Assembly (NCBI GenBank): GCA_016716065.1
Contig: JADJXA010000025.1
Coordinates: 292,863-356,862, forward strand
Direction: 5' to 3'
Length of the DNA stretch: 64,000 bases
Source: Candidatus Leptovillus gracilis
GTDB taxonomy: Bacteria; Chloroflexota; Anaerolineae; Promineifilales; Promineifilaceae
Made by a program: the position numbers and the translations under genes. How positions within the stretch are numbered: position 1 is the stretch's first letter; the number at the start of each line of letters is the position of its first letter. This document shows positions 34,391 to 58,783 of this stretch, one piece after another. The notes beneath the pieces were generated by a model. That model was not told the origin of the DNA. It saw nothing but the letters and a program-made list of their open reading frames with translations, and did not search any database.

Positions 34391-34433
34391 GTTCCTAATA
34401 TAGAACATAATCATTCCAGACGAGGATAGGGCA

Positions 34434-34679
34434 ATGTCTACAGCCAAGAATCTCGAGAATTTGGGCGCCAAACTCAAAGCAATTCGCAAACACTTGGGCT
34501 ATAGCCAGGAAGATATGGCAACCGCTGTGGGTAAAACGGGTAAGTCCCGCCGGTCACGGGTGCATGAGTGGGAGAAAGGGCTGCGGGAGCCAGAACTTTC
34601 ATGTTTATCTGCCTATGCCCGGCTGGCGGGGATCTCCGCCGACGATCTGCTTGATGACAGTGTGGAACTTCGTTTGTGA
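34434..34679 (+). CDS. XRE-family HTH transcriptional regulator
   Basis: LGAKLKAIRKHLGYSQEDMATAVGKTGKSRRSRVHEWEKGLREPELSCLSAYARLAGISADDLL is the Cro/C1 HTH pattern. Confidence 0.8.
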   Translation: MSTAKNLENLGAKLKAIRKHLGYSQEDMATAVGKTGKSRRSRVHEWEKGLREPELSCLSAYARLAGISADDLLDDSVELRL

Positions 34680-34725
34680 CAGCCATCCCCGACGCCCAGA
34701 ACTAAAAAATAACAAACGTGAACCT

Positions 34726-35979: not shown

Positions 35980-36104
35980 ATGAGTCACATCTATTACGAA
36001 CTACTGACTTTGACCAACTGTGAAATTGCCAATTGAATAAAACGAATCTCTCAAACGAGACACCCTTTCTGAAACACCATTAATAGCATTTTCGGGGCAA
36101 TGTA

Positions 36105-42708: not shown

Positions 42709-42715
42709 AAAGCCT

Positions 42716-43597
42716 ATGGAAATCATTAACAACAACCAAGTTACTCCCCATCGCTTACACGCTCTGGCGCGTCTAGTATCTCGATTGCGAACGCCAAGTC
42801 GAGATGACTTTTTGGAGATGTTGCAGCCTCCTGATTTGGTGAACAGTCAAGAAGCAAGTAAAGCTGTTTATAACGCCGCCACAAATTTCCGGGTCATTGT
42901 GGAAGATGAAAACGGCCGTGTCTCCCTCCACCCCGACATTGGCAAACGCAAAAACATTGAATCAACAGATGGTTTTCGCACCTTCATGCAAAAGCGACTC
43001 ACAGGCATTGCCGATGAGAATGCCGACAACTACCTAATCAATTTCGTAACAGCCTGGTACGCGGTGCAAAACGAACGCATCTTTCAGTACCGGAAAAAGG
43101 ATGAGATTTCGCAAAACTTTAACAGAGACATGGACCCTCGCGGTGAAGAAGAGCTACTAGAGGAAGGGCGTCTATTCAACTCCACAAAATTAATCGGCTG
43201 GCTCACGTGGGCATCATTCTTGGGCTGGGGTTGGACCATGACAATCGGTGGCAAAGAGTTGCTGATGCCCGACGCCCATAAGCGGCTCATCCCTGTCCTG
43301 CCATTATTACTGCCAGATTCCAAAGAAACGCCTTTCAGCCAATTCGCCGAACGATTAGCTGATAGTTGCCCAGAACTGGACGGCGGTAGTTTGTTTGAAA
43401 AATGTTGGCAATCCAGTCGCGGCGCCGAACTGAGAGGTAATCAATTAAGCCTTATGCTGTCCACCGGTCTGAGATCGCTCCATGATAACGGCAAAATCCG
43501 GTTAATTCATTACGCCGACAGCGCAGACGAATGGCAACTTTACCCGGCGCAAGCTCACCCACTTCAGCGCGTGACGCACATCCAACGGAGGGCTTAA
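42716..43597 (+). CDS. dpdG: Hypothetical protein in the DpdG position
   Basis: No motif recognised. Start MEIINNNQ lies 8 nt after the dpdF stop. The symbol rests only on gene order and size. Confidence 0.45.
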   Translation: MEIINNNQVTPHRLHALARLVSRLRTPSRDDFLEMLQPPDLVNSQEASKAVYNAATNFRVIVEDENGRVSLHPDIGKRKNIESTDGFRTFMQKRLTGIADENADNYLINFVTAWYAVQNERIFQYRKKDEISQNFNRDMDPRGEEELLEEGRLFNSTKLIGWLTWASFLGWGWTMTIGGKELLMPDAHKRLIPVLPLLLPDSKETPFSQFAERLADSCPELDGGSLFEKCWQSSRGAELRGNQLSLMLSTGLRSLHDNGKIRLIHYADSADEWQLYPAQAHPLQRVTHIQRRA

Positions 43598-43601
43598 GGC
43601 A

Positions 43602-46600: not shown

Positions 46601-46814
46601 CGAGTTATTACAAGAAAGCGCCGCCTACGTTGATTACTTTGAGCGATTCGTAAAAGTTGCCCGTGAAGAGGAGACAAAATTAGGAGGCCATGTTGCTAGT
46701 TTGGAGAGGGAAAGTCAGGGAGACGACCTGTATCAGCAAATGCTGGATCAATACGATAAGCTAAATCAATTGCTTACCTCTACAACTCAAACTGAGGGGG
46801 AAACGAGGCCATGA
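43602..46814 (+). CDS. dpdH: Large P-loop NTPase in the DpdH position
   Basis: Walker A MQGIQGTGKSHLIRWL, Walker B-like NLVLFIEDISVF and a Cys cluster CQSCAHRPICH. GGAGGG RBS. The symbol rests on order and size only. Confidence 0.5.
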   Translation: MSTSPFTRYVCWDKQPLNKVINTEAVSIDRAIFLATHTPFNNITYLKSPRQIKDTSETQLLEELLHRSDNDEHTFVVMQGIQGTGKSHLIRWLKERYAAESQERHLNDVVLLIERANSSLRQTLSQIVRSRLFDAERFANQIKKLESATQQLSDESLSDTILHYLEVATREVDVPAPRRIAGKVGEFLRNGFIRQHLKQKGAAIERVRLFLSGKGDTIGLSEHEFPKFNATDFDFPPDVKRKILIEGGHRDARDLAETLSLKPGKQQELADYLNQLLPFAIERTTALSANDLKQMFYDLRRELKQQGKNLVLFIEDISVFTGLDAGLVDVLVTQHTGEGGRDYCRLTSVVGITDAYFKDSFPGNIKDRVTHHLTLNIGDGEKESLLLKSQEAVADIASRYLNALRLYPHQIEEWVKLGARPSELPNACQSCAHRPICHAAFGARPLSSVHDEGSEAGLYPFNKQSLWTLYQRLDTTKVAKTPRTFLGSILEYILQSHGAKVKEGQFPPPARELSNAVRPPTLTQDAQRRMITRQTPSTAVADRIESLILFWGDRTINRSAESGETAVGNLSEPVFRAFDLPFIEGDVIANPPHRFPTPIQPKTVSTPTVQIGAIHPATVTSVEPKPIAIEQSPVDPIIQDIQEWRRGSELVRYSDLSKWLANFVKEFIDWEAHNVSPTLVDTKVTGGRFVIEGQKGRAQGDYLVFKRSDDLAFVLQALTDLNQRANVLSATEIGGHLITLSNWMEKEEARIVEFVQRPLANLESPRSLLELLVHTNLFISCLGEEFATSKDSPRDLYLRLMKSSARRNSWQTVMNKSPYPRSKEWRDLMRGLQTVEADCRGQLEILVNRPQGGSRYITFIDAASVLDIISDIKKEGWDIPQLDLQEVAKVNNKVWQPVATAYNKLQSSFAPTALAETQHIQTVSGKLLDFLAGATPADVFQAIENLFQSFRDNAISISLSRFSVNEALTPGKLTNRLKSLQAILDSENIEALILSLSGAGELLQESAAYVDYFERFVKVAREEETKLGGHVASLERESQGDDLYQQMLDQYDKLNQLLTSTTQTEGETRP

Positions 46815-47500
46815 TAATTACCCTTACCGATAATATTCAAACCCAAATCAATCGCCGGAAAGAACTAGAACAACGCCGCGATAACAGGAAGGATATTGAC
46901 GCCTCGTATCAAAGGCTCACAGAAATTAGTAAACTACTGCAAGAAACCTTAGCCAGCTTTCACCTCATCCAATCTCGGCTTACGAATGACCAGATAACTG
47001 AATCTATAAGGCAATTGCAGAACATCCAAAATAAGCTCAAAGAGTCCTACGAAAAGTTTGCTATTGAATATCGCCAAGTTCAAAAACTTATCGCAGTAGA
47101 AAAACTGGTGCAAGAGCTACAGGGTTTTCTTACCCGCGCTTGGGCGAGCTATGTCATGGCGCAAACACAGCCTCATTTCAATCTGCTGAATTTAGTTGAG
47201 AAACTACCAGAGGTGACTGTACAAGGCAGCCTAATTGCTCCTATACGGCAAAGACTTGAATCAGCATCGAGCCAATTACCGCGGAGAGAATTCCACCTTG
47301 CCCAATTCGATGCAGATCTGCAAGCGTTACAAAACAGTCTCGCAGACTTAAGCGGCTTGAGCGCAGAAGTCACCGAATTTTTGCGCCGAATACAAAAAGG
47401 TACCGCTACCATTACCGACCTTACAGATGAAGTGTTAGCCTGGTGCCGAGAAAATGAGCGCGCCAGGGCGTTTAAGATAAGTTTTGGGCAAGCCAAGTAA
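46811..47500 (+). CDS. dpdI: Coiled-coil protein in the DpdI position
   Basis: Heptad-rich, Gln/Leu/Glu-rich sequence. An ATGA overlap with the upstream gene and a TAATG overlap with the downstream gene. Confidence 0.45.
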   Translation: MIITLTDNIQTQINRRKELEQRRDNRKDIDASYQRLTEISKLLQETLASFHLIQSRLTNDQITESIRQLQNIQNKLKESYEKFAIEYRQVQKLIAVEKLVQELQGFLTRAWASYVMAQTQPHFNLLNLVEKLPEVTVQGSLIAPIRQRLESASSQLPRREFHLAQFDADLQALQNSLADLSGLSAEVTEFLRRIQKGTATITDLTDEVLAWCRENERARAFKISFGQAK

Positions 47501-50500
47501 TGAACCACTCCGATTTCAACCACCTCTGTAATGAAGTTCTCTCGCTGATTGAGTTGGAAGAGACCAAACTGCTTGGTTGGGGCTTTGTCAACATTCGCGT
47601 GGATTTACGCCGCGACTTGTTGGATATGTTGAGCAAGTTGCCGGCAACGGCCGTTGCCCTATGGAACAAAGCGCAACAAACCAACTATACCGAGCAAGAC
47701 ATTATCGAGAACCTAATCGAACGGCGTCTGTTATTTGAAGTGCCAGACGGCTACCGTAGCCGCTTTGCCGAAACGGTGCGCCTCCTATTTTTGCTCAGAC
47801 AACGCTTTTCTAACGATGATTGGCAAGTGGCGCCGCACTTGGTCAGCGATTTCAAGCTAAAACTGCAACCGCGCCGCTATCCCCGACGCAATATCACCCT
47901 TGAACAGCTTAGGGAGGCGCTAAAACCTCTTCGCCCCTCCCAATTATTCGAGGATAGCATTGCGACCTTGTTGCAAGGAACATCCACACAGTCTTTACAA
48001 CTATCACAATTTCAGCTTGACGCAATCATTCAGCAAATCCGCAACTTGCAAGCAAATAATGATCAAGCATTGGTAATTGGGGCAGGCACAGGAGCCGGTA
48101 AAACCAAAGCATTTTATCTGCCCGCTTTGGCTTATATCGCTGAAAACATTCAATCAGACTATGCTACAACACAAGTGCTGGCTCTCTATCCCCGAACGGA
48201 ACTGCTCAAAGACCAGTTGGCAGAAGCTTTTTCCGAAGCGCGTAAGCTCGATAGTTTGTTGAGCAAAGCCGGTAAGCGACAAATTAGCCTTGGCGCTTAT
48301 TATGGCGACACACCCTCAAGAGCCGCTGATTTCTCCAGCCCACACAAGCCGAATGGCTGGAAGCAGGCAGATGATTTACGAGGCTGGATTTGCCCTTATT
48401 TCACCTGCCCTAACGAGTTATGCAATCATGCAGAGATGATTTGGCTTCAACAAGACATAGATCGTGAAGCAGTGGCTAACAGGTCGAATACATTCGGTGA
48501 ACACACGCGCTTGCAATGTCGTAAAGAATGCGGCTTTGAAACAGATGCCGGTCAGCTTATGCTAACCCGCGAGCAGATGATAAAACACCCACCTGACATC
48601 TTGTTTACCACCACGGAGATGCTCAATCGTCGCTTGAGTCGTGTCGCGGAACATAGCCTGTTTGGAGTCAACGCCAACAATCCGCCGCGCCTCGTTTTAT
48701 TAGATGAAATTCATACCTATGAGGGGATTAGCGGCGCTCAAGTTGCCTACCTGCTACGTCGCTGGCGGCAGGCAAGAGGTACTCACGGGCCTCAGCGCAG
48801 TCTTTGTTTGGTCGGCTTATCGGCAACTTTGACGCAGGCGGAAACATTTTTTGCCAAATTGGTTGGACTGCCAGCAAGGAGTGTGCAATATATTGAGCCG
48901 CATGAAAACGACCTCATTACGGAGGGAATGGAGTACAACATTGTTTTGCGAGGTGATCCGGTCTCTGGCACAAGTTTGCTGTCAACATCGGTGCAAACGG
49001 CAATGCTCTTAGGTCGCGCATTGGACAATGGAGATAACCCTGTTTCGCAAGGGGCGTTTGGCTCTAAAACATTTGCTTTCACGGATAAGCTGGATGTCAT
49101 CAACCGCTGGTATTACATTCAGTATGACGCAGAATACAACAAGAGATTGAGCCGTTGGCGCAAATTGCCCGAACCGCCTGACAATCAAAGAAGAGAGAGA
49201 ATGGATTTAGGTCAGATATGGCCCATGTCGGAGCGAATCGGGCATGATCTAGAGGTTGCGCTTCGTCTGGGCAGGACAACTTCCCAAGATCGGGGTTTCA
49301 ACACGGATGCGGAGCTAGTGATTGCGACAAGTACCTTGGAGGTGGGTTTTAATGATCCAAACGTCGGCGCGGTAATCCAACACAAAGCGCCACGTAGTAT
49401 GGCTTCTTTTTTACAGCGGAAGGGGCGCGCTGGTCGTCAACGCGGGATGCGTCCGTGGCTGGCGTTGGTGGTTTCCGCTTACGGCCGTGATCGCTGGGCA
49501 TTTCAACACGCAGAAGAGGTCTTTGATCCCCGTTTAGCAACCATCCATCTGCCATTGGAAAATTACTACGTGCAAAAAATACAGGCGGCATTTGCTCTGT
49601 TAGACTGGTTGGCGCTTGTGTTGAAAAAACAAGGGTTTGACGCCGACGTGTGGAAGTCACTAAGCAGCGCCCCCTACAGCAGCTCCAGTTGGTTCAGCGG
49701 TCAGCGAAAGGCAATGGCAGCTATCCTGCGCGATTTGCTAAACGGCAAACGGTTGGAGGAATTCACCGCCTATTTAACGCAGGCTTTGGTACTGCAACAT
49801 GATGAAACGGCCGTTACCTCCATCCTCTGGGGCGAACCACGATCTCTCCTTTATCACGTCATCCCCACCATCTTGCGCCAGCTAGAGACAGATTGGCAAG
49901 CCATCAACAGGGGCAACCCTCAAAAGTGGGCCGACAACATTGCCGCCATGCCCTTACCCGCTTTTGTGCCATCAGCTCTTTTTAACGATCTGAATGTTCC
50001 AGAAGTACAAATCTTCGTTCCCACAGAGCGGTGGCAGAGTGATGAAACACGGGAAGAAATGTTGGGATTAGCTCAATCGCTTATAGAATTCGCGCCTGGT
50101 CGAGCGAATAAGCGCTTTGCTCTCACCCATCACGCCGATCTTGCTCACTGGTTGCAGATACCTGATCCTGCTCCCGATGCGCCTCATAATCTCAACATTC
50201 ATGCCCTCAAAGCAGAATTTGATCCAGTTCCATCATCAATCACGGTCTCCGATACGTCATACCTCGTCTATCGCCCGCGAGCGTATCATCTGAATGCTGT
50301 ACCGGACGATGTGCGGACGACCAGCTATAGCCAGTTGCAATGGCTGTCTCATTTTCAACCGCGATCAATCTCCACCAATGCCAACCAGTCAGCTTTGGCC
50401 GCCCAACGTCAGGCTCTTGCCGTTTTCTCGTCTAACTCCCAGTGGCAGCGCTTTTTTTACAAAGTTGAGTCATTCACACAATCCAGTGGCGAGTGGGTTG

Positions 50501-52095
50501 AAGTTGCCCGTTTAGCGGTAGGGGTTCAGGTAGATACGCGCTATAAAAACGGCTCTTCATCTCGTTACACGCTCCAGTTTAGCAATGGTCAGGGAATGCT
50601 TGCAGCAATTGGATTTAGCGTGGCCGCTGACGCGCTTAAATTCAGCTTTTACCCACTAGATGTTTCCGCGTTATTCGCGCATCCACGTTGGCCCACCCTC
50701 TACCAAAATCTATCGCCTCACTATTTTCTACACCTGTTACAACAGGATCAGCGGGTAAGTAACCTGAGTAGTTTTGAGATTGAGTGGCTATGGCAGATTG
50801 AACTATCTATGCTAACGACCGTTGCCATCTCCCGCTCCTGTTCTTTACCTGAAGCCGCGCAAGAAGTGCAAGAGAATCGCCACGCTCTAGCCAATCATGC
50901 CCTTAATATCATCTTTCAAAGTCAGGCTATAGACGAAATAGGCGATTCCATCATGACCGGCAAATTGCATAAGCAATTGCTGGATCATCAAGTAAATCCT
51001 GACGTTCAGGCCGCTTTATCCGCTGCGGCGACGGCGCTGTGGCACCCCAACCAACAGGATTTAGCAGAATGGCTGTCTGGCTGTTATGCCTCTTCATTGG
51101 GCGCAGTTTTGTTTACGGCCGTTATCCAACTATTGCCCGATATTGAACCAAACGACCTCCATATGGACATCGCCGGCGGTTGCATCTGGATTTCCGAAGC
51201 TATCACCGGCGGCGTTGGACTAATCTCTAAAATCGTTACCGCAATTACGCAACATCCACGCCAGTTTGAGTTACAGCTATTAGACACCCTCGCCCATTGT
51301 CGCCGGAGCCAGCTTGCCCAGCAATTACGCGCAGTTGTCCAGCTTATACAAGAACAAAACCCCGAATTAGAAGCTGTTTTCGCGCAAGTTCGCCAAGAAA
51401 GCGACCTGTCCAGTCTGACAAACGCACAAAAGAGATTAACGCATATCTTGGAAGCGCATGGCATTCCGCCCACACGCCAACTTTTTGTCGCCCTGAATAA
51501 TAAAATCCTACGGGCGAATTCCGATGCAGATACCGACAAACTGATCGCTGATCTGGCGCATCATTGGGAGGCTGAAGAGAATCGCTTGGGAATTGCCATA
51601 GACTTGCGTGTGATCGCTGTGGCCGGTTATCAAATTCCCACAATACAGGAGCAAGTCAAGAAAGTGCTCAACCGGATTGGCGGCGGTCAGCCCGTTCAAG
51701 ATGAGACCCAAGTTTTCAATTTGCTCCAATCATTGCTCTGGCTAAATTGTGTAGATAGTTGCCCCGATTGCATCCAGACATGGAACCCGTATCAACCCCA
51801 AATACGGCCGTCGCGTGATCTGCTCACGCTTTTACTGGCGCCATATGGGCAGACCATCCTATACGGTGACGCCTACTGGGAGAGCCAACTACAAAAAGCA
51901 TTGGTAGCAGAGTATCAGGCCGAACTCCTTTGTGAACAGGCAGAGTTAGCCGAATGTAAAATTGCTCTGTTGCACGCCTTGACGCAGCCCATTGATATAG
52001 GCTTTCAAAGTTTTTACCCTGTTATCGAAAGTATTAGACAAGATAAACAGCAATGGCGATTCCATCTAATCATCCGCGAATTGGTGGGAGAATAA
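47500..52095 (+). CDS. dpdJ: Large DEAD/DEAH-box helicase with a C-terminal DUF1998/MZB-like Cys motif (DpdJ-like; DrmA/B-like)
   Basis: IGAGTGAGKTKAF (motif I), LVLLDEIHTYEG (motif II), GLSATL, ATSTLEVGFNDPNVGAVIQH and QRKGRAGR (motif VI). C-terminal NCVDSCPDC. Confidence 0.7.
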   Translation: MNHSDFNHLCNEVLSLIELEETKLLGWGFVNIRVDLRRDLLDMLSKLPATAVALWNKAQQTNYTEQDIIENLIERRLLFEVPDGYRSRFAETVRLLFLLRQRFSNDDWQVAPHLVSDFKLKLQPRRYPRRNITLEQLREALKPLRPSQLFEDSIATLLQGTSTQSLQLSQFQLDAIIQQIRNLQANNDQALVIGAGTGAGKTKAFYLPALAYIAENIQSDYATTQVLALYPRTELLKDQLAEAFSEARKLDSLLSKAGKRQISLGAYYGDTPSRAADFSSPHKPNGWKQADDLRGWICPYFTCPNELCNHAEMIWLQQDIDREAVANRSNTFGEHTRLQCRKECGFETDAGQLMLTREQMIKHPPDILFTTTEMLNRRLSRVAEHSLFGVNANNPPRLVLLDEIHTYEGISGAQVAYLLRRWRQARGTHGPQRSLCLVGLSATLTQAETFFAKLVGLPARSVQYIEPHENDLITEGMEYNIVLRGDPVSGTSLLSTSVQTAMLLGRALDNGDNPVSQGAFGSKTFAFTDKLDVINRWYYIQYDAEYNKRLSRWRKLPEPPDNQRRERMDLGQIWPMSERIGHDLEVALRLGRTTSQDRGFNTDAELVIATSTLEVGFNDPNVGAVIQHKAPRSMASFLQRKGRAGRQRGMRPWLALVVSAYGRDRWAFQHAEEVFDPRLATIHLPLENYYVQKIQAAFALLDWLALVLKKQGFDADVWKSLSSAPYSSSSWFSGQRKAMAAILRDLLNGKRLEEFTAYLTQALVLQHDETAVTSILWGEPRSLLYHVIPTILRQLETDWQAINRGNPQKWADNIAAMPLPAFVPSALFNDLNVPEVQIFVPTERWQSDETREEMLGLAQSLIEFAPGRANKRFALTHHADLAHWLQIPDPAPDAPHNLNIHALKAEFDPVPSSITVSDTSYLVYRPRAYHLNAVPDDVRTTSYSQLQWLSHFQPRSISTNANQSALAAQRQALAVFSSNSQWQRFFYKVESFTQSSGEWVEVARLAVGVQVDTRYKNGSSSRYTLQFSNGQGMLAAIGFSVAADALKFSFYPLDVSALFAHPRWPTLYQNLSPHYFLHLLQQDQRVSNLSSFEIEWLWQIELSMLTTVAISRSCSLPEAAQEVQENRHALANHALNIIFQSQAIDEIGDSIMTGKLHKQLLDHQVNPDVQAALSAAATALWHPNQQDLAEWLSGCYASSLGAVLFTAVIQLLPDIEPNDLHMDIAGGCIWISEAITGGVGLISKIVTAITQHPRQFELQLLDTLAHCRRSQLAQQLRAVVQLIQEQNPELEAVFAQVRQESDLSSLTNAQKRLTHILEAHGIPPTRQLFVALNNKILRANSDADTDKLIADLAHHWEAEENRLGIAIDLRVIAVAGYQIPTIQEQVKKVLNRIGGGQPVQDETQVFNLLQSLLWLNCVDSCPDCIQTWNPYQPQIRPSRDLLTLLLAPYGQTILYGDAYWESQLQKALVAEYQAELLCEQAELAECKIALLHALTQPIDIGFQSFYPVIESIRQDKQQWRFHLIIRELVGE

Positions 52096-52099
52096 ATCA

Positions 52100-52609
52100 A
52101 TGTCTAATCGCATGATCAAATCAGCCACCCGCAAAAATTCTTTACAGCTAACCGATTGCCTCAGCTCACTGTTTATGCTGGAATTGGCGCTGCCCAGCCA
52201 ACAGTTTTATTTGTTCTCGCCATGGATAAGTGATGTCGCTCTAGTAGATAACCGCTTTGGCCAAGTCAGGTCAATTGTCCCTAACCTTGAAGAGCGTCAA
52301 TTACCCCTCTCTACGCTGCTAAACGCAATGGCTTCGCGGGGAACGGCCGTTTACATTGTTTGCCGCCCCTCTTACGAGCGAACAGAAACGTTTTTGCGAA
52401 AATTATTGGTAGATATTCAGGTCAGGCAGGTGGAAACTCTGCACGAAAAAGGATTAATCACCGATCATTTTTATCTGCGCGGCTCCATGAACTTCACCTA
52501 TTCAGGTATTCACATCAACGATGAACATATCGAGCTAACCACAGACACAGAACAGGTTGCTCGCGCCTTGTTGGAAGCGCGACACCGATGGGAAACTCTT
52601 GGAAAATGA
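52100..52609 (+). CDS. dpdK: Phospholipase-D-family (HKD) nuclease (DpdK-like)
   Basis: HKD motif LHEKGLITDHFYLRGSMNF (HxKxxxxD...GSxN) in a 169-aa protein. Confidence 0.75.
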   Translation: MSNRMIKSATRKNSLQLTDCLSSLFMLELALPSQQFYLFSPWISDVALVDNRFGQVRSIVPNLEERQLPLSTLLNAMASRGTAVYIVCRPSYERTETFLRKLLVDIQVRQVETLHEKGLITDHFYLRGSMNFTYSGIHINDEHIELTTDTEQVARALLEARHRWETLGK

Positions 52610-54351
52610 CCACTGTAACCTTTGCCAACCCTGATCAATACGCCTTTGCTCAGGAGTTTGTCCGTCCTCTTGTTAATCAGGGCATTCGCGCCATGGGCGA
52701 TCCTCATCAGCTAACGCTGACCACAGATCACGCCGCCGTTAACCTGCTGTTTCAGCGTCTGGCGAAAACAAATGCCGCCATATTGCCTTACTTGGGAAAT
52801 CGTTCGGATCAATGGTTGCTAGTTGGGCAAGACCGTCGCGCCCTGGATGAAATGTTGGCGCGTGTGACCGCCTTTGTCATTCCTTCTTACGCTGAATTTG
52901 GCGATGGGGCACGCTTTGCCGAACTTTCTCTCTTTGACCCGCAAAAGAACATACTGAACCAATTGGGAGCGCAACTGTACAATCTTGGTTACTACAAGTG
53001 GGAGTCGTCCCCGAGGTACCGCGAAACAATTCTTGCCCGGCTATCACTGTGGCTCAAGTTGGAAGAAATCGAACCGTCCCTTGAACTGCCTCCTCAGTAT
53101 GGGTACCGGGACCTGTATCAACTATTTACGCAAGCATTGAGTGTTAAAAACTGGCCGACGGCCGCAAATGTTTTGTCTGAGATGCGCCGGCTCAATCTGA
53201 CAACCGCCGAAAACCTGCAATTCTTGCATGTTCAATGGTTAGCTGAACAACAAAGATGGCAAGACATTTGGGATGATCCAGATTTTGCAATGCTCGCCAG
53301 GTTAAGAATGCCCCGCGATGTACGGTCGGCCATGTTGACCACTTTCCATCATGTGAACCTGCTGGCTTTAGAACGAGCGGGGCAATGGGAAACGGCCGTT
53401 GCCATCTTCCAAGAGATGCAAGGGCGTTTAGGTACATTACTGGTAGGACGATTTGGCGTTGCGCAAGCTCCCGTTCTGCGCGTTTTTGGTTATCAGGCAC
53501 TACTCAACAACGATGCCACCACATTAGAAAGTCTCCTAGCTGAGGCTTCAGATTTAGAGACGATTCACTGCCTCAACCAGTTAAAAAGCCGGCTGACCCC
53601 ATCAGACGCCAAAACGAAAGTTCTCACTCAAGACCCCTTACAACAAGCCATCCTGGCTTTAAAAGCAAATGATTACGACACCGTTATTCAAGCAATAAAA
53701 GCTATTGACGACATAACCGCCCGGGTTTTGTTGGCTATTGAAATCGCCTATCACAGCCGTGATGATCTGCTAATACAAGAAGCATGGACTATTTACCAGA
53801 GCCTTTCCCCAGAGCAGAAACAAGCGCTCATGGTCAACGGCCGTTATGTGGGTATTTACCTCGATTTCTTGCGGGAAAGTAGTACCGATCAACCAAAATC
53901 CATATGGGCCACAGAAGTAAAGAAAGCACGGGACGCCGCCTGGGATGGCGTGTGTGAAGTTGAATATTATCTGAGGCGTTTGGTTGAAGACCGGTATGCC
54001 AAGAAATTTGGAGATGTCTGGGAGTCTCGCGTTAACCCTGAATTACGCGAGAGATGGGCAGGCACACAAACTAAAGACGAAAAAACCTTCGCCCGCTATG
54101 GAATGCGAAAATCTTCACTGTTGGACTACACTTACATGGGTGATTTGGTCGGGTTAATCAACAATCAGTGGCCACTCTTTGAAGATATTTTGGGCGCAGG
54201 CAAGGCAGCCAAACAAGAGTTTACACGGGTGACAGAAGCGGTAATTCGTGTCCGAAACCCTCTGGCGCACAACAGGGATGTGCCTCTCAATGAATTACGC
54301 CGGGCTGATGTTTACTGTGCTGATTTGCTAATGCTTCTCAGGGGGCCATGA
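52606..54351 (+). CDS. Helical-repeat protein with a C-terminal Swt1-like HEPN domain
   Basis: The C-terminus carries YYLRRLVEDRY...MGDLVGLINNQW...EAVIRVRNPLAHNRDVPLNEL. The RNPLAH segment is the Rx4H HEPN motif. ATGA overlap with the dpdK stop. The ORF is open from 52588. Confidence 0.65.
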   Translation: MTTVTFANPDQYAFAQEFVRPLVNQGIRAMGDPHQLTLTTDHAAVNLLFQRLAKTNAAILPYLGNRSDQWLLVGQDRRALDEMLARVTAFVIPSYAEFGDGARFAELSLFDPQKNILNQLGAQLYNLGYYKWESSPRYRETILARLSLWLKLEEIEPSLELPPQYGYRDLYQLFTQALSVKNWPTAANVLSEMRRLNLTTAENLQFLHVQWLAEQQRWQDIWDDPDFAMLARLRMPRDVRSAMLTTFHHVNLLALERAGQWETAVAIFQEMQGRLGTLLVGRFGVAQAPVLRVFGYQALLNNDATTLESLLAEASDLETIHCLNQLKSRLTPSDAKTKVLTQDPLQQAILALKANDYDTVIQAIKAIDDITARVLLAIEIAYHSRDDLLIQEAWTIYQSLSPEQKQALMVNGRYVGIYLDFLRESSTDQPKSIWATEVKKARDAAWDGVCEVEYYLRRLVEDRYAKKFGDVWESRVNPELRERWAGTQTKDEKTFARYGMRKSSLLDYTYMGDLVGLINNQWPLFEDILGAGKAAKQEFTRVTEAVIRVRNPLAHNRDVPLNELRRADVYCADLLMLLRGP

Positions 54352-54386: not shown

Positions 54387-54581
54387 CTACTCAAACGGCC
54401 GTACCATCTCAATCTCATACACTTCCGCTAAAGAAACGTCTATCTCATCCAGTGCCTTCTGAACATCGCGTGTTATCAACGCCACTGTATCGGGCGCCAA
54501 TGTCACGTCAACTTCCTGCCCCTCCATTAACTCAAGCACGACGTGCAAAACCTTGTCTGGATTTGTATCAGCCTGTTTCAT
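54387..54581 (-). CDS. Small acidic protein (64 aa)
   Basis: Acidic sequence. ATGA overlap with the stop of the 852-aa ATPase gene indicates translational coupling. Confidence 0.45.
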   Translation of the reverse strand: MKQADTNPDKVLHVVLELMEGQEVDVTLAPDTVALITRDVQKALDEIDVSLAEVYEIEMVRPFE

Positions 54582-56935
54582 GTTTCTCGCTCCTTGTAAG
54601 ATCCTTCTTCTGTTTCAACCAGATGCAGACGTAAGGCGGTGTACACATCAGGCACTAACATCCGTATCTCTTCCTGTACTTCAGGAGACACTTCCGTCAA
54701 AGCCACGCTCTCACCACGTCGCCAGGCATCAACCACCCGACTTGTGCGATCTGATAAGGTTGTAGACCCCGCCTGTTCACATTGCTCGATATAACGCTGG
54801 ACCTGGCTCAATACGTTGGCTAACGGCCGTCCCTCCAGCAAATAATCCTTGTCTATTTCTGACACATCCATCTGGGCCAATCTGGAAAACCACGTCTCAT
54901 AAGGTACGTCTTTCAACAATTGCCCAATGAGAACACTATCGTAAAACCCCTGACGCAACTCGAAAAAATCATCGAACAGAAACTGAAATGCCTGCCAGCT
55001 CCTGTCACTGATTTGTTCATGCCGCCACCGATAACGCTGATGCGTGTCATTGACCCAACACCAGAAATCAGCAGGAAAACCTGGTAAACGGTAGGCTCCT
55101 TCGCCTTTGACAACCAGGGCAAATGTTTGCAATACTAACGCCAGCAGCTCCACCTTCATACCCAACTGAGTCTCAAGATCAAGCCTTACACGTTGGCGAT
55201 AGTTGTCTGCTGTCATTTGCAAAGAGACAAGCTCTTTGGCCGTCGCCAATTGTTCTTGTAACTTTTTCGTTTCACTGCCGGTCGCTGTTCCGTACCGGCA
55301 TAAGTCGAAAGCTATCATGCCAATATCGCGCGTTAGCGCGATGCCATCCTGTGCTTCATCTACTCCTTCCAGATAAATGGGCAGGCGCACATCCAGATAC
55401 GTTTTGCGCCAGCGTAGCGCGCCACGCGGCTTGGCTACATGCTCCCGATATATCCAGTCAATGGGCTGCACAGTGCGCAGCCAACGTGCCGCACCCTGAC
55501 GCAAGGACCGCAGCATCTGCCGGTTGACCGACTTGCCCAGAAGCCAGTCTCTAACAACCATCTGGCTTTCGTCCTCAATGATCAGGCTGCTCGTTGCTTC
55601 GCGGGGCTGGTAAAAACGAATGAGAGGCTCAACGGGAATTGCCCTTTGTTCTGCGGTAATGGCGAAGGCCAGCAGCAGAGTTCCCGGCAGAGCAATCAGA
55701 TTATCACTGTCTGGCTCCAACAAAGGTCCGTAAAACTCGCACAAACGCGCCAGACGACTGTCTTCCACTCTGGCGATATATTCCGGCCGAGCGAAATCTA
55801 CCAGCACATCCAACGGGTCTTCACCCGTGGTAGTGCGCCGCAATATCTCGTGCAGATACCGAACAAAATACCGTACTTTCCCTTTACCCGCAGGCAAAGC
55901 GCGGTAAATGCGCACCAGCGCTTCCCGCGTGAATGGGAAATAGGGCAGGCCCGGTACAGTGTTGTCATTCATCTCTGTCAGATAGCGAGATGCAAACTCA
56001 TCACAGTTTGCTTCGGTTAAGACGTAAGACTCCTTGCCCGTTTCATCTGACAACCACATTTTCCCGACACGGTCATCTATCGTGTCCAGATGGCTGATGC
56101 GCTGCAACAATCCGCGGCCGCGCAAGCTATCTTCAAACGCGGCTGGCGTTAGCCCTAAAACAACGTCCCAGTTACCTGCTTCCAACGTCAGGAGGTAATC
56201 CAGTAGATCAGTGGCAAAGATATTAAGGGATTGCACCAAATCGTCCACCAGCAAAAGAGGCCGCTGTCCCTGTTCTGCCTGACAATGATACGAAATACGC
56301 TGCATCGTTTCAGCCAGCGATAGACCTTCCAGCAGATGGTCACGAAAAGCGGTGGTCAATTGATGACGGAACTGTTCGTAAGCTACCGGAACGGGCAGGG
56401 ATGTTTCTCGAAGAATAGCCGACCAGGTTTCCTGACCAATCAGCTCCACGCCCATAGACTCGTCTATATCTCCTGGTTCAAACGCCAGGATTCTGTCTAC
56501 GTGTGGTTGCAGCGCATTCAGCAAGCGGTAGAAAAGAGCGTTGATCAGGTCATCCGAATCGAGAAGGTTCTCCAGAGCGAACAAGAGAATCATTTTAGTG
56601 ACCGTGCGCGATTTCTGCCGAGCGGCACTCCAGCGCTGTGTCGTCGTTTCGTTGAGAAACTGATTGGGCAACAAAGTCAGGAAACGATTGACGATGCTAA
56701 GAACATCTAGCTCATGGCGCGAAATACGCACCATTACCTGGCCCCGCTGCGGTTCTTCCTGGAGGATGCGCGTCTCTAGCCATTTAATCAGCTCCGATTT
56801 TCCCGATCCCGGGGCGCCGTACAACACCCAGATGCGGTTGCCCAAACCATTCTGTTGCCCCAGAACACGCCGCAGTAACGCATCCTCTGTCAACATTTCG
56901 AGATGGCCGTTAGGCTGATAGCTGCGCATGGTCAT
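54578..56935 (-). CDS. Large P-loop NTPase (unknown family; Walker A context resembles the DpdH-position protein)
   Basis: Walker A IWVLYGAPGSGKSELIKWLE and Walker B RPLLLVDDLV, followed by a long helical C-terminus. The ORF is open up to 57136, but that would overlap the upstream gene by 118 nt. MTMRSYQ at 56935 is chosen; the start is uncertain. Confidence 0.6.
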   Translation of the reverse strand: MTMRSYQPNGHLEMLTEDALLRRVLGQQNGLGNRIWVLYGAPGSGKSELIKWLETRILQEEPQRGQVMVRISRHELDVLSIVNRFLTLLPNQFLNETTTQRWSAARQKSRTVTKMILLFALENLLDSDDLINALFYRLLNALQPHVDRILAFEPGDIDESMGVELIGQETWSAILRETSLPVPVAYEQFRHQLTTAFRDHLLEGLSLAETMQRISYHCQAEQGQRPLLLVDDLVQSLNIFATDLLDYLLTLEAGNWDVVLGLTPAAFEDSLRGRGLLQRISHLDTIDDRVGKMWLSDETGKESYVLTEANCDEFASRYLTEMNDNTVPGLPYFPFTREALVRIYRALPAGKGKVRYFVRYLHEILRRTTTGEDPLDVLVDFARPEYIARVEDSRLARLCEFYGPLLEPDSDNLIALPGTLLLAFAITAEQRAIPVEPLIRFYQPREATSSLIIEDESQMVVRDWLLGKSVNRQMLRSLRQGAARWLRTVQPIDWIYREHVAKPRGALRWRKTYLDVRLPIYLEGVDEAQDGIALTRDIGMIAFDLCRYGTATGSETKKLQEQLATAKELVSLQMTADNYRQRVRLDLETQLGMKVELLALVLQTFALVVKGEGAYRLPGFPADFWCWVNDTHQRYRWRHEQISDRSWQAFQFLFDDFFELRQGFYDSVLIGQLLKDVPYETWFSRLAQMDVSEIDKDYLLEGRPLANVLSQVQRYIEQCEQAGSTTLSDRTSRVVDAWRRGESVALTEVSPEVQEEIRMLVPDVYTALRLHLVETEEGSYKERET

Positions 56936-57018
56936 GGGATAGTGGGTGCGCAAAAAGAGATCGGCGCCCAATAAATACCGTTGGTCGGCAGTGGGCGCAA
57001 AGATAGATAGGTTACTAC

Positions 57019-57789
57019 TCAAGCCCCACCCCCGTTGCAAAGAAGATAACGTAACCGCTGTTCCGCGAAATAGGGCTTGTTGGGTGCATCCTGATAAGGG
57101 CGCATTAAGATGTTTCGCTGCTGATGTAAGTACCACAACGGCTGACCAACTGCGTGCGCCAGGTTGCCGGTTTGTGTCTGGTGGGGTAAATAGCCCGCCA
57201 GGTGCTCTTCCAAAAAGTCCTGGATAAACCCCTCGCGTCTATCCCACACGACGAGAATTTCTTGTAACAGGGTGGGGGAATAAACGCATTGAAACCCATC
57301 GCCGATGCGTCGCCCTATACCCAGGTAAGCCATTACTCGTTTCCAGGAACGGATTTTTTCCTGACTGAGACCGCCTAACTCAGCGACAGGTCGCAACTTG
57401 TTCGCCTCGGTGTGAACGTCACTCACGTACAGATGATTCGGTTTGATAAAAAGCTCTTGTAGCAGCAGCAAGTACAACGAATCTAATTCGTGGTTAGGCG
57501 TGATTTTTCGACTGGCAAGCGCCTGCAAACGAGCAATCACGGTTAACCGGAAGGAGGTTGTTGGCCTTTCCGGTTCCCCCAGACAAAACCCATCGCGGTC
57601 TTCGATCAGAAAAGCGGCGACGAGAAAGGAGAGAGCGTCGTCAATGCTTTGGGGTGAAACAGCTCGCTTGTCTTTATAGTCTGGAAGACAGGCCTGATAA
57701 ATCGCCTGGCGCGAGACCGGCTTCGTATTCTGAGCCACAAAGGTGTAGACGACTTCCAGTTCTGGACCGGATACAGGACGAAATAGCAT
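57019..57789 (-). CDS. Hypothetical protein with an N-terminal wHTH-like segment
   Basis: LEVVYTFVAQNTKPVSRQAIYQACL...SIDDALSFLVAAFLIE looks like a winged helix. It is the first gene of the minus-strand three-gene operon, divergent from the short TGT-like gene. Confidence 0.5.
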   Translation of the reverse strand: MLFRPVSGPELEVVYTFVAQNTKPVSRQAIYQACLPDYKDKRAVSPQSIDDALSFLVAAFLIEDRDGFCLGEPERPTTSFRLTVIARLQALASRKITPNHELDSLYLLLLQELFIKPNHLYVSDVHTEANKLRPVAELGGLSQEKIRSWKRVMAYLGIGRRIGDGFQCVYSPTLLQEILVVWDRREGFIQDFLEEHLAGYLPHQTQTGNLAHAVGQPLWYLHQQRNILMRPYQDAPNKPYFAEQRLRYLLCNGGGA

Positions 57790-57812
57790 GATCTCTCCAG
57801 GTTAGCGAACCA

Positions 57813-57841
57813 TTGACGCAGATCGCTACGTGTGCTAGTTT
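57813..57841 (+). promoter_or_regulatory. Sigma70-like promoter for the TGT-like/queC unit
   Basis: ttgacg (57813-57818)-17 nt ending in tgc-tagttt (57836-57841), 40 nt upstream of the ATG at 57884. Confidence 0.35.
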
Positions 57842-57883
57842 ACACAGTGGTTAACGTGTTCGCAATAAAGAACAAGATGTGAC

Positions 57884-58783
57884 ATGGACTTCTACGTAAG
57901 TTGGTATCCCGGAGATCCCCTTTATCCCGTCTACGATCCAGATTGCGCCTTACTGGTGAGTATTACGTCGGTGGCTCAAGACTGGACAATTGATCGTCTG
58001 GCAACGCTTCCGCGCCGACTGCTGATAGATAGCGGTGGTTACCGCTTTGCGATTGCCCCTGACGATGCTTTATCACCCAAGCAAGTGCTACAAAGGCAAC
58101 TGGCGCTGCTGAACGGGGCGACAATTCCGACGATCATCTGCGCTCGTGATTATCCCCTACTCGACAAATCTATCAGCCCCAATGAGCGGGATAAAAGTAT
58201 TACCCAAACAATAGCCTTTGCTTATGAGCTAAAGACTCTTATTAACCAGAATGGACTGGAACACCACGTTACACCGATGGCCGTTATCCAGGGCAATGAT
58301 GAGGATTCATTGGCTTACTGTGCCAGAGAGTTGCAGGCTATCGGCTTTCCCTTGTACGGGATAGGTTCACTGGCGGAGTTACGAAAGCACAACCTGATTA
58401 TGGAACGAGTGAAGGTTGTGGCCAACATCATTGGCCCGGAGAAGCTGCACATCTTTGGTATCGGCGCAGTGCAAACAGCGCAGACTTTCCAGAAAATGGG
58501 TATCCACTCCCTTGATTCTTCACGACCGGCTAAAGCCGCCGCTTACAATGAGGTTCTTTACAGTAATCCCTATCGTCGTTTTGGGATTTTGGAACCTCCG
58601 TCAATTCCGCTAAAAGGTCGCATTGCGCCGCATAAACGATTAAGCGCTCCTTTGCACTGCCACTGCCCCATATGCCAGGAAGATGCAACACGGATATTGG
58701 GTGTCGGCAAGCGTAGCCATATCCGCGACCGGGCCTTGCACAACTATTACCATCTCAAAAAGGCTTTTCTTAGCCAAAACTAA
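57884..58783 (+). CDS. Short TGT-superfamily transglycosylase (second, phage-like DpdA-type paralog)
   Basis: LLIDSGGYRF (catalytic DSGG motif), AVIQGN, YGIGSLA, HIFGIGAV, LDSSRPAKAA and the zinc motif CHCPICQ...HNYYH. 299 aa. Confidence 0.7.
   Translation: MDFYVSWYPGDPLYPVYDPDCALLVSITSVAQDWTIDRLATLPRRLLIDSGGYRFAIAPDDALSPKQVLQRQLALLNGATIPTIICARDYPLLDKSISPNERDKSITQTIAFAYELKTLINQNGLEHHVTPMAVIQGNDEDSLAYCARELQAIGFPLYGIGSLAELRKHNLIMERVKVVANIIGPEKLHIFGIGAVQTAQTFQKMGIHSLDSSRPAKAAAYNEVLYSNPYRRFGILEPPSIPLKGRIAPHKRLSAPLHCHCPICQEDATRILGVGKRSHIRDRALHNYYHLKKAFLSQN

What the first reader, a model, noticed from the sequence alone, without database searches (positions are those of the whole stretch)
52606..54351. 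Swt1-like HEPN protein translationally coupled to the PLD nuclease at the end of the Dpd-like operon
The 581-aa ORF starts with an ATGA overlap on the dpdK-like stop and ends in a clear Rx4H HEPN signature (VIRVRNPLAHN) after a long helical-repeat region. I do not recall a HEPN RNase as part of the described dpdA-K set. Its coupling suggests that an RNA-targeting or abortive-infection arm was added to a DNA-modification-dependent restriction machine.
Basis: partly seen in the sequence, partly recalled or inferred. Interest (0 to 1): 0.7.

Follow-up and report, generated by a model that had tools for sequence, protein, structure and literature searches.

The report
DpdD variant carrying a HEPN RNase domain
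The gene is the Dpd defence system's own DpdD subunit, placed last in the operon, whose usual tail is replaced by a predicted HEPN RNA-cutting domain; this rare variant gives a first testable clue to what DpdD does.

Summary
ORF 52606..54351 (+, 581 aa) overlaps the dpdK stop by ATGA and ends in a HEPN domain with an invariant RNxLAH motif.

The ORF is not a ninth, added gene.
- Residues 1-~425 are the N-terminal module of DpdD (NCBIfam DpdD 5e-45; Pfam PF28109 DpdD). No other dpdD exists in the window.
- Canonical DpdD (about 750-800 aa) carries a different, DUF2325-like tail with no HEPN similarity (hhalign probability 0.3%).
- The K-then-D gene order with overlap also occurs with canonical DpdD, so the position is not new. 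The domain swap is.

The swap is conserved and selected.
- Six intact loci, down to about 33% identity, share the order F-G-H-I-J-K-D(HEPN). A seventh has an IS element splitting dpdK.
- The HEPN domain is the best-conserved part of the protein.
- One DpdD instead carries a Schlafen/AlbA_2 tail.
- In one related island the same HEPN type is fused to the YprA-like helicase, and dpdK and dpdD are absent.

Best reading: DpdD carries an exchangeable effector domain, here a metal-independent RNase gated by the Dpd helicase machinery. RNase activity and its trigger are inferred, not shown. This is a new variant of a known kind, of moderate interest.

The parts
52606..54351 (+). Whole gene: DpdD-HEPN, 581 aa plus stop
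   Evidence: ORF and translation. Fourteen full-length relatives at 54-100% identity, all with precomputed Pfam PF28109 (DpdD).
52606..52609 (+). ATGA start/stop overlap with dpdK
   Evidence: Sequence. Overlaps of 1-20 nt are kept in L001, L004, L088, L093, L095 and L097, and also in L087 and L096 where DpdD has a non-HEPN tail. Translational coupling itself is inferred.
52606..53880 (+). DpdD N-terminal module (aa 1-~425): alpha/beta domain (aa 1-135) followed by a helical-repeat region (aa 136-425)
   Evidence: NCBIfam DpdD 5.4e-45, aa 46-436 against model 27-403/704. PADLOC DpdD models down to 5e-14. BLASTP 37% identity to canonical DpdD P0016 over aa 4-421 only. AlphaFold2 secondary structure. 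Only weak TPR/PPR-like fold hits, E >= 0.03.
53881..53925 (+). Inter-domain linker (aa ~426-440)
   Evidence: pLDDT below 50 for aa 422-436. Lowest conservation in the protein, mean pairwise identity 0.21. Similarity to canonical DpdD ends here.
53926..54348 (+). Swt1-type HEPN domain (aa ~441-581)
   Evidence: Pfam HEPN_Swt1: 27.5 bits in the full protein, 31.6 bits for the domain alone, against a cut-off of 27.5; 32 of 32 related domains match, best 8.6e-11. PADLOC PDC-M34B 1.1e-14. AlphaFold2 domain model pLDDT 95.9, pTM 0.89, helix order as in HEPN.
53962..53976 (+). E453-x3-R457, the upstream acidic/basic HEPN motif (Ex3[KR])
   Evidence: Invariant in alignments A1, A2 and A3. The motif is described for HEPN in PMC3710099.
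54253..54270 (+). R550-N-P-L-A-H555, the Rx4H catalytic motif with polar N after R
   Evidence: R, N and H are invariant in all 58 domain copies from DpdD, YprA-like helicases, nSTAND NTPases and ~415-aa proteins. In the model the motif lies at the end of helix 3, as in known HEPN domains.
52100..52609 (+). dpdK, PLD/HKD nuclease, 169 aa
   Evidence: PADLOC DpdK 2e-47; Pfam PLDc_2. HxKx4D motif intact at aa 115-122.
33441..52095 (+). Rest of the Dpd operon: dpdC-like DUF6884 (33441..34331), dpdA (34564..35979), dpdE (36105..40130), dpdF (40087..42708), dpdG (42662..43597), dpdH (43602..46814), dpdI-like (46811..47500), dpdJ (47500..52095)
   Evidence: PADLOC, Pfam and NCBIfam scans. DUF6884 is named as the Pfam family typical of dpdC in PMC11888242. 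The DpdI assignment rests on position plus a faint NCBIfam hit (E = 0.007). No dpdB was detected.
54578..58783 (.). Conserved companion module: convergent DpdH-like AAA ATPase (54578..~57000, -), DpdG-like 256-aa protein (57019..57789, -), second TGT/DpdA-like protein (57884..58783, +)
   Evidence: Weak DpdH, DpdG and DpdA hits. Found next to every DpdD-HEPN gene examined and next to the helicase-HEPN fusion in L098 at 43-50% identity. Its role relative to the HEPN domain is unknown.

Best explanation
The gene encodes the Dpd system's DpdD subunit. Its N-terminal module (alpha/beta domain plus helical repeats, aa 1-~425) is retained. The usual ~340-aa DUF2325-like C-terminal region has been replaced by a Swt1-type HEPN domain.

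Proposed mechanism:
- The N-terminal module docks DpdD onto the Dpd restriction machinery (the DpdJ YprA-like helicase, the DpdK PLD nuclease and their partners).
- The C-terminus is an exchangeable output domain.
- In this clade the output is a metal-independent endoribonuclease. It becomes active when two HEPN domains pair. That pairing is gated by the helicase complex when it meets DNA lacking 7-deazaguanine marks, or when that complex is blocked.
- The result is RNA cleavage, with growth arrest or an abortive outcome, on top of or behind DpdK's DNA cleavage.

Shown here: identity as DpdD; the domain replacement; the intact HEPN catalytic signature; conserved operon position; purifying conservation.

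Inferred: RNase activity, dimer activation, the trigger, the RNA substrate, and contact with DpdJ/DpdK.
For: (1) DpdD identity. NCBIfam DpdD scores 5.4e-45, but only over model positions 27-403 of 704. Eleven PADLOC DpdD models hit. Pfam PF28109 is DpdD. It is the only DpdD in the window.

(2) Domain replacement.
- 105 canonical-type DpdD representatives (730-808 aa when full-length) match only profile positions 1-~425.
- Their C-terminal alignment shows no relation to HEPN: hhalign probability 0.3%.
- None of 47 canonical DpdDs hits HEPN in Pfam; 5 of 47 weakly hit DUF2325.

(3) HEPN signature.
- 32 of 32 related domains hit HEPN_Swt1, with secondary hits to Abi_2, RiboL-PSP and Csm6 HEPN families.
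- R-N-x3-H is invariant in 58 domains, and E453/R457 are invariant.
- The high-confidence model has four core helices, an insert between helices 2 and 3, and the motif at the end of helix 3. That matches the published description of HEPN (PMC3710099).
- The best geometric PDB neighbour is the HEPN protein AbiF, 8vz6_A, with TM 0.50.

(4) Selection. The HEPN domain is the most conserved region among DpdD-HEPN proteins: mean pairwise identity 0.46, against 0.33-0.39 for the N-terminal parts.

(5) Conserved context. The order F-G-H-I-J-K-D(HEPN) recurs in six intact loci, down to about 33% identity.

(6) Evidence for an exchangeable output slot. One DpdD in the same operon position carries a SLFN_AlbA_2 tail instead, at 6.5e-16. 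HEPN and Schlafen are the RNase types catalogued as backup effectors in BREX-related systems (PMC12839542).

(7) Rosetta-stone fusion. In L098 a HEPN domain 52% identical to this one is fused to the C-terminus of a 2010-aa YprA-like helicase. That helicase lies next to the same ATPase/257-aa/TGT module (43-50% identity), and no dpdK or dpdD is present.
Against: - No experiment of any kind exists on this protein or on DpdD.
- Foldseek found no statistically significant structural match for the HEPN model in the PDB or in BFVD. Profile searches of PDB sequences found nothing.
- The full-protein Pfam score sits exactly on the threshold.
- The function of canonical DpdD and of its DUF2325-like tail is unknown. 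The swap could therefore be regulator-for-effector rather than effector-for-effector.
- Some HEPN domains, including eukaryotic Swt1 itself, are non-catalytic binders.
- Crude NJ trees do not show a clean single origin for the HEPN-bearing DpdDs.
- No immunity or antitoxin partner was seen nearby: there were no Rfam hits in the window and no tandem repeats in 50-60 kb.
Confidence: 0.55

Rival explanations
1. The HEPN domain is the main effector of this Dpd subtype, not a backup. The helicase complex senses unmodified DNA, and the defence output is RNA cleavage. DpdK would be auxiliary or dispensable.
For: L098 has the helicase-HEPN fusion and no dpdK or dpdD in the sequenced stretch. In L092 an IS element (DDE_3 transposase) splits dpdK while DpdD-HEPN stays intact. 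The HEPN domain is the best-conserved part of the protein.
Against: The window's DpdK keeps an intact HKD motif, and dpdK is present in six of the seven DpdD-HEPN loci examined. L098 is a 13.8-kb contig cut upstream, so a nuclease could lie elsewhere. L092 may simply be a decaying locus, since its ATPase is also split.
Confidence: 0.2
2. The HEPN domain is non-catalytic. It serves as a dimerisation, RNA-binding or nucleotide-binding module that regulates or assembles the Dpd restriction complex, replacing whatever structural role the DUF2325-like tail plays.
For: HEPN domains with binding-only roles exist: eukaryotic Swt1 and the tails of nucleotidyltransferases (PMC3710099). The role of the canonical DpdD tail is unknown. 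No antitoxin-like partner was seen.
Against: The R, N and H of the motif and the upstream E-x3-R are invariant across 58 domains in four architectures. In the HEPN survey this pattern marks active RNases, and inactive lineages have lost it.
Confidence: 0.17
3. One reading: an independent HEPN accessory gene, a ninth component, was recruited next to an otherwise complete dpd gene set.
For: The gene lies at the operon's end and carries a domain that is mobile among defence proteins.
Against: Its first ~425 aa are DpdD and no other dpdD is present in the window. Canonical-tail and AlbA_2-tail DpdDs occupy the same position after dpdK.
Confidence: 0.03
4. The HEPN RNase acts on the host's own RNAs for regulation, for example on operon mRNA or on tRNAs that compete for preQ0/queuosine, rather than for defence output.
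For: The island carries queC, a Vut_1/YhhQ-type transporter gene and two TGT homologues, so the DNA and tRNA deazaguanine pathways share a precursor (PMC5699537).
Against: No direct evidence. The closest HEPN relatives sit in STAND NTPases, YprA helicases and PADLOC defence candidates, which points to effector use.
Confidence: 0.05

Closest known systems
Canonical DpdD (NCBIfam NF041061, Pfam PF28109) of the Dpd 7-deazaguanine restriction-modification system
   Same: Homologous N-terminal ~425 aa: 37% identity to P0016, with profile hits to more than 100 cluster representatives. Membership of a dpdA, E-K operon. In a whole branch of Dpd clusters, the same position after dpdK with an overlapping start.
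   Different: 581 aa instead of about 750-800 aa. The conserved C-terminal helical region plus DUF2325-like alpha/beta domain is absent and replaced by HEPN. The score is below the NCBIfam equivalog cut-off: 154.5 against 300. In the Salmonella-type island dpdD opens the restriction operon (PMC11888242); here it closes it.
HEPN-fused DUF499/HmaC ATPases of Type-1 BREX-related (Hma) systems, and the Abi2/Swt1 HEPN clade in R-M operons
   Same: A Swt1/Abi2-type HEPN with an intact Rx4H motif is fused to a non-nuclease core subunit of a helicase-containing, modification-dependent defence system. It has been proposed to act as a last-resort RNase effector (PMC3710099, PMC12839542).
   Different: The partner is an AAA+ ATPase and the fusion is N-terminal. 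The self-mark is m6A, not 7-deazaguanine. There is no homology outside the HEPN domain.
PrrC/RloC anticodon nucleases linked to type I R-M
   Same: The logic is the same: a HEPN RNase genetically coupled to a DNA restriction machine, thought to fire when restriction is challenged. This rests on established knowledge and PMC3710099.
   Different: PrrC and RloC carry an ABC-type NTPase N-terminal domain and belong to a different HEPN family. Here the N-terminus is the DpdD module, with no NTPase motifs detected.
PADLOC candidate PDC-M34B, and the ~415-aa, nSTAND-HEPN and YprA-helicase-HEPN proteins
   Same: These are the closest sequence relatives of the HEPN domain: PDC-M34B 1.1e-14, and P0089 at 52% identity over 150 aa. 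They share the same RNxLAH...NE signature.
   Different: Their N-terminal partners differ: unknown domains, STAND NTPases, or DEAD/MZB helicases. None has the DpdD module.
AbiF (PDB 8vz6), a HEPN toxin of a type III toxin-antitoxin system
   Same: It is the best geometric match to the domain model (TM 0.50, 149 columns). It belongs to the Abi2 family, the sister of Swt1-type HEPN.
   Different: The Foldseek E-value is 1.5, which is not significant. AbiF is regulated by a repeat ncRNA, and no such repeats or Rfam families are present here.

Membership tests
DpdD (NF041061 / PF28109) | Homology to the DpdD N-terminal module | tested here: met
   NCBIfam 5.4e-45 over model positions 27-403. Eleven PADLOC DpdD models hit. 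Precomputed PF28109. 37% identity to canonical P0016 over aa 4-421.
DpdD (NF041061 / PF28109) | Full-length equivalog match including the C-terminal half (model positions ~404-704) | tested here: not met
   154.5 bits against a cut-off of 300, and no alignment beyond model position 403. hhalign of the canonical C-terminus against this C-terminus gives probability 0.3%.
DpdD (NF041061 / PF28109) | Encoded in a dpd cluster with dpdA and the restriction genes dpdE-K | tested here: met
   dpdA, E, F, G, H, J and K were identified with strong PADLOC hits. A dpdI-like gene was assigned by position.
DpdD (NF041061 / PF28109) | Contribution to restriction of unmodified DNA | not testable with these tools
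   Only genetic data for Salmonella dpdD-K as a set are reported (PMC10164549).
HEPN superfamily, Swt1-like family (PF18731) | Profile match at or above the Pfam gathering score | tested here: met
   27.5 bits, equal to the cut-off, for the full protein. 31.6 bits for the domain alone. 32 of 32 related domains match, best 8.6e-11.
HEPN superfamily, Swt1-like family (PF18731) | Rx4-6H motif with a polar residue after R | tested here: met
   R550-N-P-L-A-H555. R, N and H are invariant in 58 domains. The criterion comes from PMC3710099.
HEPN superfamily, Swt1-like family (PF18731) | Upstream conserved acidic residue, typically Ex3[KR] | tested here: met
   E453 and R457 are invariant in A1, A2 and A3. 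In the model they lie in the first long helix, whereas the survey places the acidic residue in helix 2, so the helix assignment is uncertain.
HEPN superfamily, Swt1-like family (PF18731) | Four-helix up-down bundle, insert between helices 2 and 3, motif at the end of helix 3 | tested here: inconclusive
   Helix order and motif position in the pLDDT-95.9 model fit. No Foldseek match reached E <= 0.001, and the best geometric hit was AbiF with TM 0.50. Model coordinates could not be inspected.
HEPN superfamily, Swt1-like family (PF18731) | Metal-independent endoribonuclease activity | not testable with these tools
   Requires biochemistry.
PrrC/RloC-type R-M-linked anticodon nucleases | N-terminal ABC/NTPase regulatory domain | tested here: not met
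   No NTPase family hit in Pfam, NCBIfam or PADLOC for aa 1-440.
PrrC/RloC-type R-M-linked anticodon nucleases | Latency through binding to the restriction enzyme, and activation on its inhibition | not testable with these tools
   Only genetic linkage (overlapping genes, conserved synteny) was seen.
Type III toxin-antitoxin (AbiF-like) | Adjacent repeat-array ncRNA antitoxin | tested here: not met
   No tandem repeats in 50000-60000 and no Rfam family in the window. The upstream DNA is dpdK coding sequence.

The most novel reading that the evidence does not exclude
DpdD is the effector-carrying adaptor of the Dpd restriction machine. Its C-terminus is a plug-in output domain: DUF2325-like in most systems, HEPN here, and Schlafen/AlbA_2 in one lineage. 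In the HEPN clade, a system that discriminates self by a DNA base modification (7-deazaguanine) delivers its response by cutting RNA, giving an abortive or dormancy outcome. By extension, the uncharacterised DUF2325-like tail of canonical DpdD would also be an effector, answering the open question of what executes Dpd restriction.
Probability: 0.3. Interest if true: 0.7.

Novelty: new variant of a known kind. Interest (0 to 1): 0.45.

Why it matters
The restriction half of the Dpd system (dpdD-K) has no assigned mechanism. DpdD has been described only as a protein of unknown function and as a candidate restriction enzyme (PMC5699537, PMC10164549).

The new observations bear directly on that gap:
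- The DpdD C-terminus is interchangeable among a DUF2325-like domain, a catalytically intact HEPN domain and a Schlafen/AlbA_2 domain.
- The same HEPN type can instead be fused to the YprA-like helicase.

Together these give a concrete, testable model. DpdD would be an output subunit working with the helicase, and some Dpd systems would pair a DNA-modification check with an RNase. This extends to 7-deazaguanine systems the 'backup RNase effector' theme already described for type I R-M (PrrC/RloC) and for BREX-related systems. It also supplies two point mutations (R550, H555) for a clean experiment.

It does not reveal a new kind of system.

Tried and rejected
- Word-indexed homologue search with the HEPN domain alone returned a single 82-aa fragment. 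Repeating it with the broader alignment A3 returned the same 16 proteins. Both were uninformative.
- Sequence and profile searches of PDB chains with the HEPN domain or with canonical DpdD gave only chance hits, such as ubiquitin and release factor 2.
- Foldseek of the full-length model gave only weak TPR/PPR-like repeat matches, E >= 0.03. Foldseek of the high-confidence HEPN model found nothing at E <= 0.001 in the PDB or BFVD. So fold confirmation rests on helix topology and motif placement, not on a significant structural hit.
- The scan of GTDB species genomes found one genome only, an Anaerolineae MAG. The metagenome scan returned mostly nSTAND-HEPN proteins rather than more DpdD-HEPN loci.
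- The plasmid search gave one distant canonical-type DpdD.
- NJ trees of the N-terminal module and of the HEPN domain were too poorly resolved to count acquisition events.
- Promoter and terminator scans around the gene were at background level.
- An AbiF-like type III toxin-antitoxin arrangement was considered and rejected, because there are no repeats and no Rfam hit.
- The idea that canonical DpdD hides a divergent HEPN was considered and rejected.
- The two original Dpd papers (PMC4801273, PMC6207457) are not held in the library.
Full report
**1. The observation**

The + strand ORF 52606..54351 translates without interruption into 581 residues. Its ATG overlaps the TGA of the preceding 169-aa ORF (52100..52609) as ATGA.

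That upstream ORF is DpdK. PADLOC gives DpdK at 2e-47 and Pfam gives PLDc_2. Its HxKx4D motif is intact at residues 115-122.

An in-frame ATG lies 18 nt further upstream. All 580-586-aa relatives begin at the 52606-equivalent position, so that start is the supported one.

Pfam HEPN_Swt1 matches residues 455-575. The score is 27.5 bits for the whole protein, exactly the gathering score. For the isolated domain it is 31.6 bits.

**2. What the gene is**

PADLOC showed at once that the protein has two parts.
- Residues ~55-410 hit eleven DpdD models, the best at 5e-14.
- Residues 448-573 hit the defence candidate PDC-M34B at 1.1e-14.

NCBIfam's DpdD equivalog (NF041061) matches at 5.4e-45. The match covers only residues 46-436 against model positions 27-403 of 704, and the score (154.5) is below the 300-bit cut-off. 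The database's precomputed Pfam label for this protein and all close relatives is PF28109, which another tool output names DpdD.

The rest of the operon is a Dpd cluster:
- a DUF6884 protein at 33441, the Pfam family that PMC11888242 gives as typical of dpdC;
- dpdA at 34564, dpdE at 36105, dpdF at 40087, dpdG at 42662 and dpdH at 43602;
- a dpdI-like coiled-coil protein at 46811;
- dpdJ at 47500 and dpdK at 52100.

A six-frame scan with profiles of the two halves finds no other DpdD module and no other HEPN of this type in the 64 kb. So this ORF is the cluster's DpdD, not an additional ninth gene.

**3. Canonical DpdD has no HEPN**

A profile of 13 close relatives was run against 1.84 billion representative proteins. 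It found 1041 proteins at E <= 1e-3. The 164 proteins then in hand (the listed best 150 plus those from earlier searches) were classified with separate profiles of the two halves:
- 26 have both halves. Beyond the query's own cluster these include eight full-length 50%-identity clusters at 32-41% identity, plus fragments.
- 105 are canonical-type DpdD or fragments of it. Full-length members are 730-808 aa and match only profile positions 1-~425.
- 33 carry the HEPN half in other architectures.

An alignment of 69 canonical C-terminal regions shows a helical stretch followed by a conserved alpha/beta domain (...IxIFTLR..RNP..VTTCxxHALTYGI..YP..). Profile-profile comparison with the HEPN alignment gives probability 0.3%.

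Of 47 canonical DpdDs scanned in Pfam, none hits any HEPN family and five weakly hit DUF2325. A Paenibacillus plasmid DpdD-like protein is annotated as a DUF2325 protein.

BLASTP against the nearest canonical protein, P0016, aligns residues 4-421 at 37% identity and nothing after that. The AlphaFold2 model has a low-confidence linker at residues 422-436.

The event is therefore a replacement of a ~340-residue C-terminal region by a ~140-residue HEPN domain.

**4. Is the C-terminus really a HEPN, and is it likely active?**

All 32 diverse domain sequences hit HEPN_Swt1, the best at 8.6e-11. Subsets also hit the Abi_2, RiboL-PSP-HEPN, SAV2148 and Csm6 HEPN families.

The R, N and H of RNxLAH are invariant in 58 domain copies from four architectures. 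E453-x3-R457 is invariant as well. These are the features that the HEPN survey (PMC3710099) ties to RNase activity: Rx4-6H, a polar residue after R, and an upstream Ex3[KR].

A domain-only AlphaFold2 model is very confident, with pLDDT 95.9 and pTM 0.89. It has two long helices, a helical insert, a third helix ending in the motif, a loop and a fourth helix. That is the published HEPN layout.

Foldseek gave no significant PDB or BFVD match. The best geometric neighbour is AbiF (8vz6_A, TM 0.50), a HEPN protein of the sister Abi2 family.

My rating is as follows. HEPN membership is well supported by sequence and consistent in topology. It is not confirmed by a significant 3D match. RNase activity is inferred.

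**5. Is the arrangement conserved?**

Contigs carrying relatives at 83, 61, 54, 38, 37 and 33% identity show the same order:
- dpdF-G-H-I-J-K, then DpdD-HEPN, with a 1-20-nt overlap between the last two;
- a convergent ~800-860-aa AAA ATPase and a ~255-aa protein;
- then a ~300-aa TGT homologue with Vut_1 and/or QueC, where the contig extends that far.

In one locus an IS element (DDE_3 transposase) splits dpdK.

The K-then-D order with overlap is not specific to the HEPN form. It also occurs with canonical-tail P0016 (L087) and with P0132 (L096). So the position at the end of the operon is a trait of this branch of Dpd clusters.

Within DpdD-HEPN proteins the HEPN domain is the most conserved region. 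Its mean pairwise identity is 0.46, against 0.33 and 0.39 for the two N-terminal parts and 0.21 for the linker.

The variant is rare in genomes. One of 185,579 GTDB species representatives carries it, an Anaerolineae MAG. All other copies come from metagenomes.

**6. Two comparative findings that bear on mechanism**

First, P0132 is a DpdD in the same operon slot whose tail is a SLFN_AlbA_2 domain, at 6.5e-16. HEPN and Schlafen RNases are exactly the classes recently catalogued as backup suicide effectors in BREX and BREX-related systems (PMC12839542).

Second, the closest non-DpdD relative of this HEPN is the C-terminus of P0089, at 52% identity over 150 residues. P0089 is a 2010-aa DEAD/Helicase_C/MZB helicase, which is YprA-like. 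Its N-terminal motor region is 31% identical to DpdJ. It sits directly beside the same ATPase (43% identity), 257-aa protein (46%) and TGT (50%) module, with no dpdK or dpdD in between.

A domain fused to DpdD in one island and to the YprA-like helicase in a related island suggests that DpdD and the helicase act together. It also suggests that the HEPN is an output of that machine.

**7. Mechanism proposed**

DpdD's N-terminal module tethers an exchangeable C-terminal domain to the helicase/PLD restriction complex. In this clade the domain is a HEPN endoribonuclease that needs pairing of two HEPN domains. Pairing would be gated by the complex when it engages DNA lacking 7-deazaguanine, or when the complex is blocked. 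The result would be RNA cleavage and growth arrest behind or beside DpdK's DNA cleavage.

- Shown: sections 2 to 6.
- Inferred: RNase activity, dimer gating, the trigger, the substrate, and the DpdD-DpdJ contact.

Rivals:
- HEPN as the main effector, suggested by L098 and by L092 with its disrupted dpdK.
- A non-catalytic binding or assembly role, disfavoured by motif invariance.
- An independent accessory gene, which is contradicted.
- A housekeeping regulatory RNase, for which there is no evidence.

**8. Comparison with what is known**

HEPN domains embedded in R-M-like systems are a long-described theme. Examples are the Abi2/Swt1-type HEPN on DUF499 ATPases and PrrC/RloC with type I R-M (PMC3710099).

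DpdD itself is described only as a protein of unknown function and as a candidate restriction enzyme (PMC5699537, PMC10164549). Full-text searches found no paper connecting DpdD or Dpd restriction genes with HEPN.

The finding is thus a new variant of a known kind. It is a known subunit with a swapped, known effector domain, following a known design logic.

**9. Verdict**

- Interest is moderate (0.45).
- The value lies in giving DpdD a testable role and in pointing to RNase outputs in a DNA-base-modification defence system.

Noticed in passing
window 54578-58783 (ATPase 54578..~57000 -, 256-aa ORF 57019..57789 -, TGT-like 57884..58783 +): A second, partial Dpd-like set lies downstream: a DpdH-like AAA ATPase, a faintly DpdG-like 256-aa protein and a second TGT/DpdA homologue (29% identical to DpdA). 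It is conserved next to every DpdD-HEPN locus and next to the helicase-HEPN fusion in L098. It could be the ATP-dependent modification module that stands in for the missing DpdB.
   Followed up: partly
window 32431-33444 (+): This 337-aa ORF overlaps the dpdC-like gene start by 4 nt and has no family hit. Its C-terminus reads ...IDVVVKDGDEFYFYEIKT..., a PD-(D/E)xK-like nuclease motif. No dpdB was detected anywhere in the window.
   Followed up: no
L096 10001-12427 (protein P0132): A DpdD in the same post-dpdK position has a C-terminal Schlafen/AlbA_2 domain (Pfam 6.5e-16) instead of the DUF2325-like or HEPN tail. This is a third C-terminal type for DpdD.
   Followed up: partly
L098 2120-8152 (protein P0089): A 2010-aa YprA-like helicase (DEAD, Helicase_C, MZB) ends in a HEPN domain 52% identical to the window's. 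It lies beside homologues of the window's ATPase/256-aa/TGT module, with no dpdK or dpdD. A similar 1955-aa protein (P0117) also exists.
   Followed up: partly
L092 8303-9996: dpdK is split by an IS element (DDE_3 transposase plus an HTH protein) while the downstream DpdD-HEPN gene is intact. The neighbouring ATPase is also split into two ORFs, so this locus may be decaying.
   Followed up: partly
window 24663-32283: A type I R-M system (hsdM 24663, hsdS 26162, hsdR 29110) has a 385-aa protein with an Effector-associated domain 7 (EAD7, 4e-18) inserted between hsdS and hsdR at 27472-28629.
   Followed up: no
window 59004-60309: QueC (3e-59) and a Vut_1/YhhQ-type transporter follow the second TGT gene. 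The island therefore carries its own preQ0 supply genes.
   Followed up: no
window ~32000-60000 versus flanks: G+C is 46-52% across the Dpd island, against 56-63% in the flanking 22-32 kb and 60-64 kb. This is consistent with horizontal acquisition. The window as a whole looks like a defence island, with a NACHT/FGE-sulfatase protein at 61117-63957 (-).
   Followed up: no
L091 (Paenibacillus sp. 37 plasmid pART37, NZ_CP043762.1 370907-411971): Two Dpd-type restriction modules lie in tandem. The second ends with a DpdD-like protein annotated only as a 'DUF2325 domain-containing protein'. The 2016 review (PMC5699537) says DUF3225 matches a small part of DpdD, whereas the scans here find DUF2325. 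This may be a transposed number in the review.
   Followed up: partly
L022, L024, L026, L030, L032, L033, L042, L046, L050, L052, L057, L060, L064 (HEPN genes near locus position 10000 or as listed): The same HEPN subfamily is common as the C-terminal domain of ~500-aa nSTAND NTPases in metagenomes, and of a large class of ~415-aa proteins with an unknown N-terminus. One nSTAND protein (P0155) combines AlbA_2 and HEPN.
   Followed up: partly
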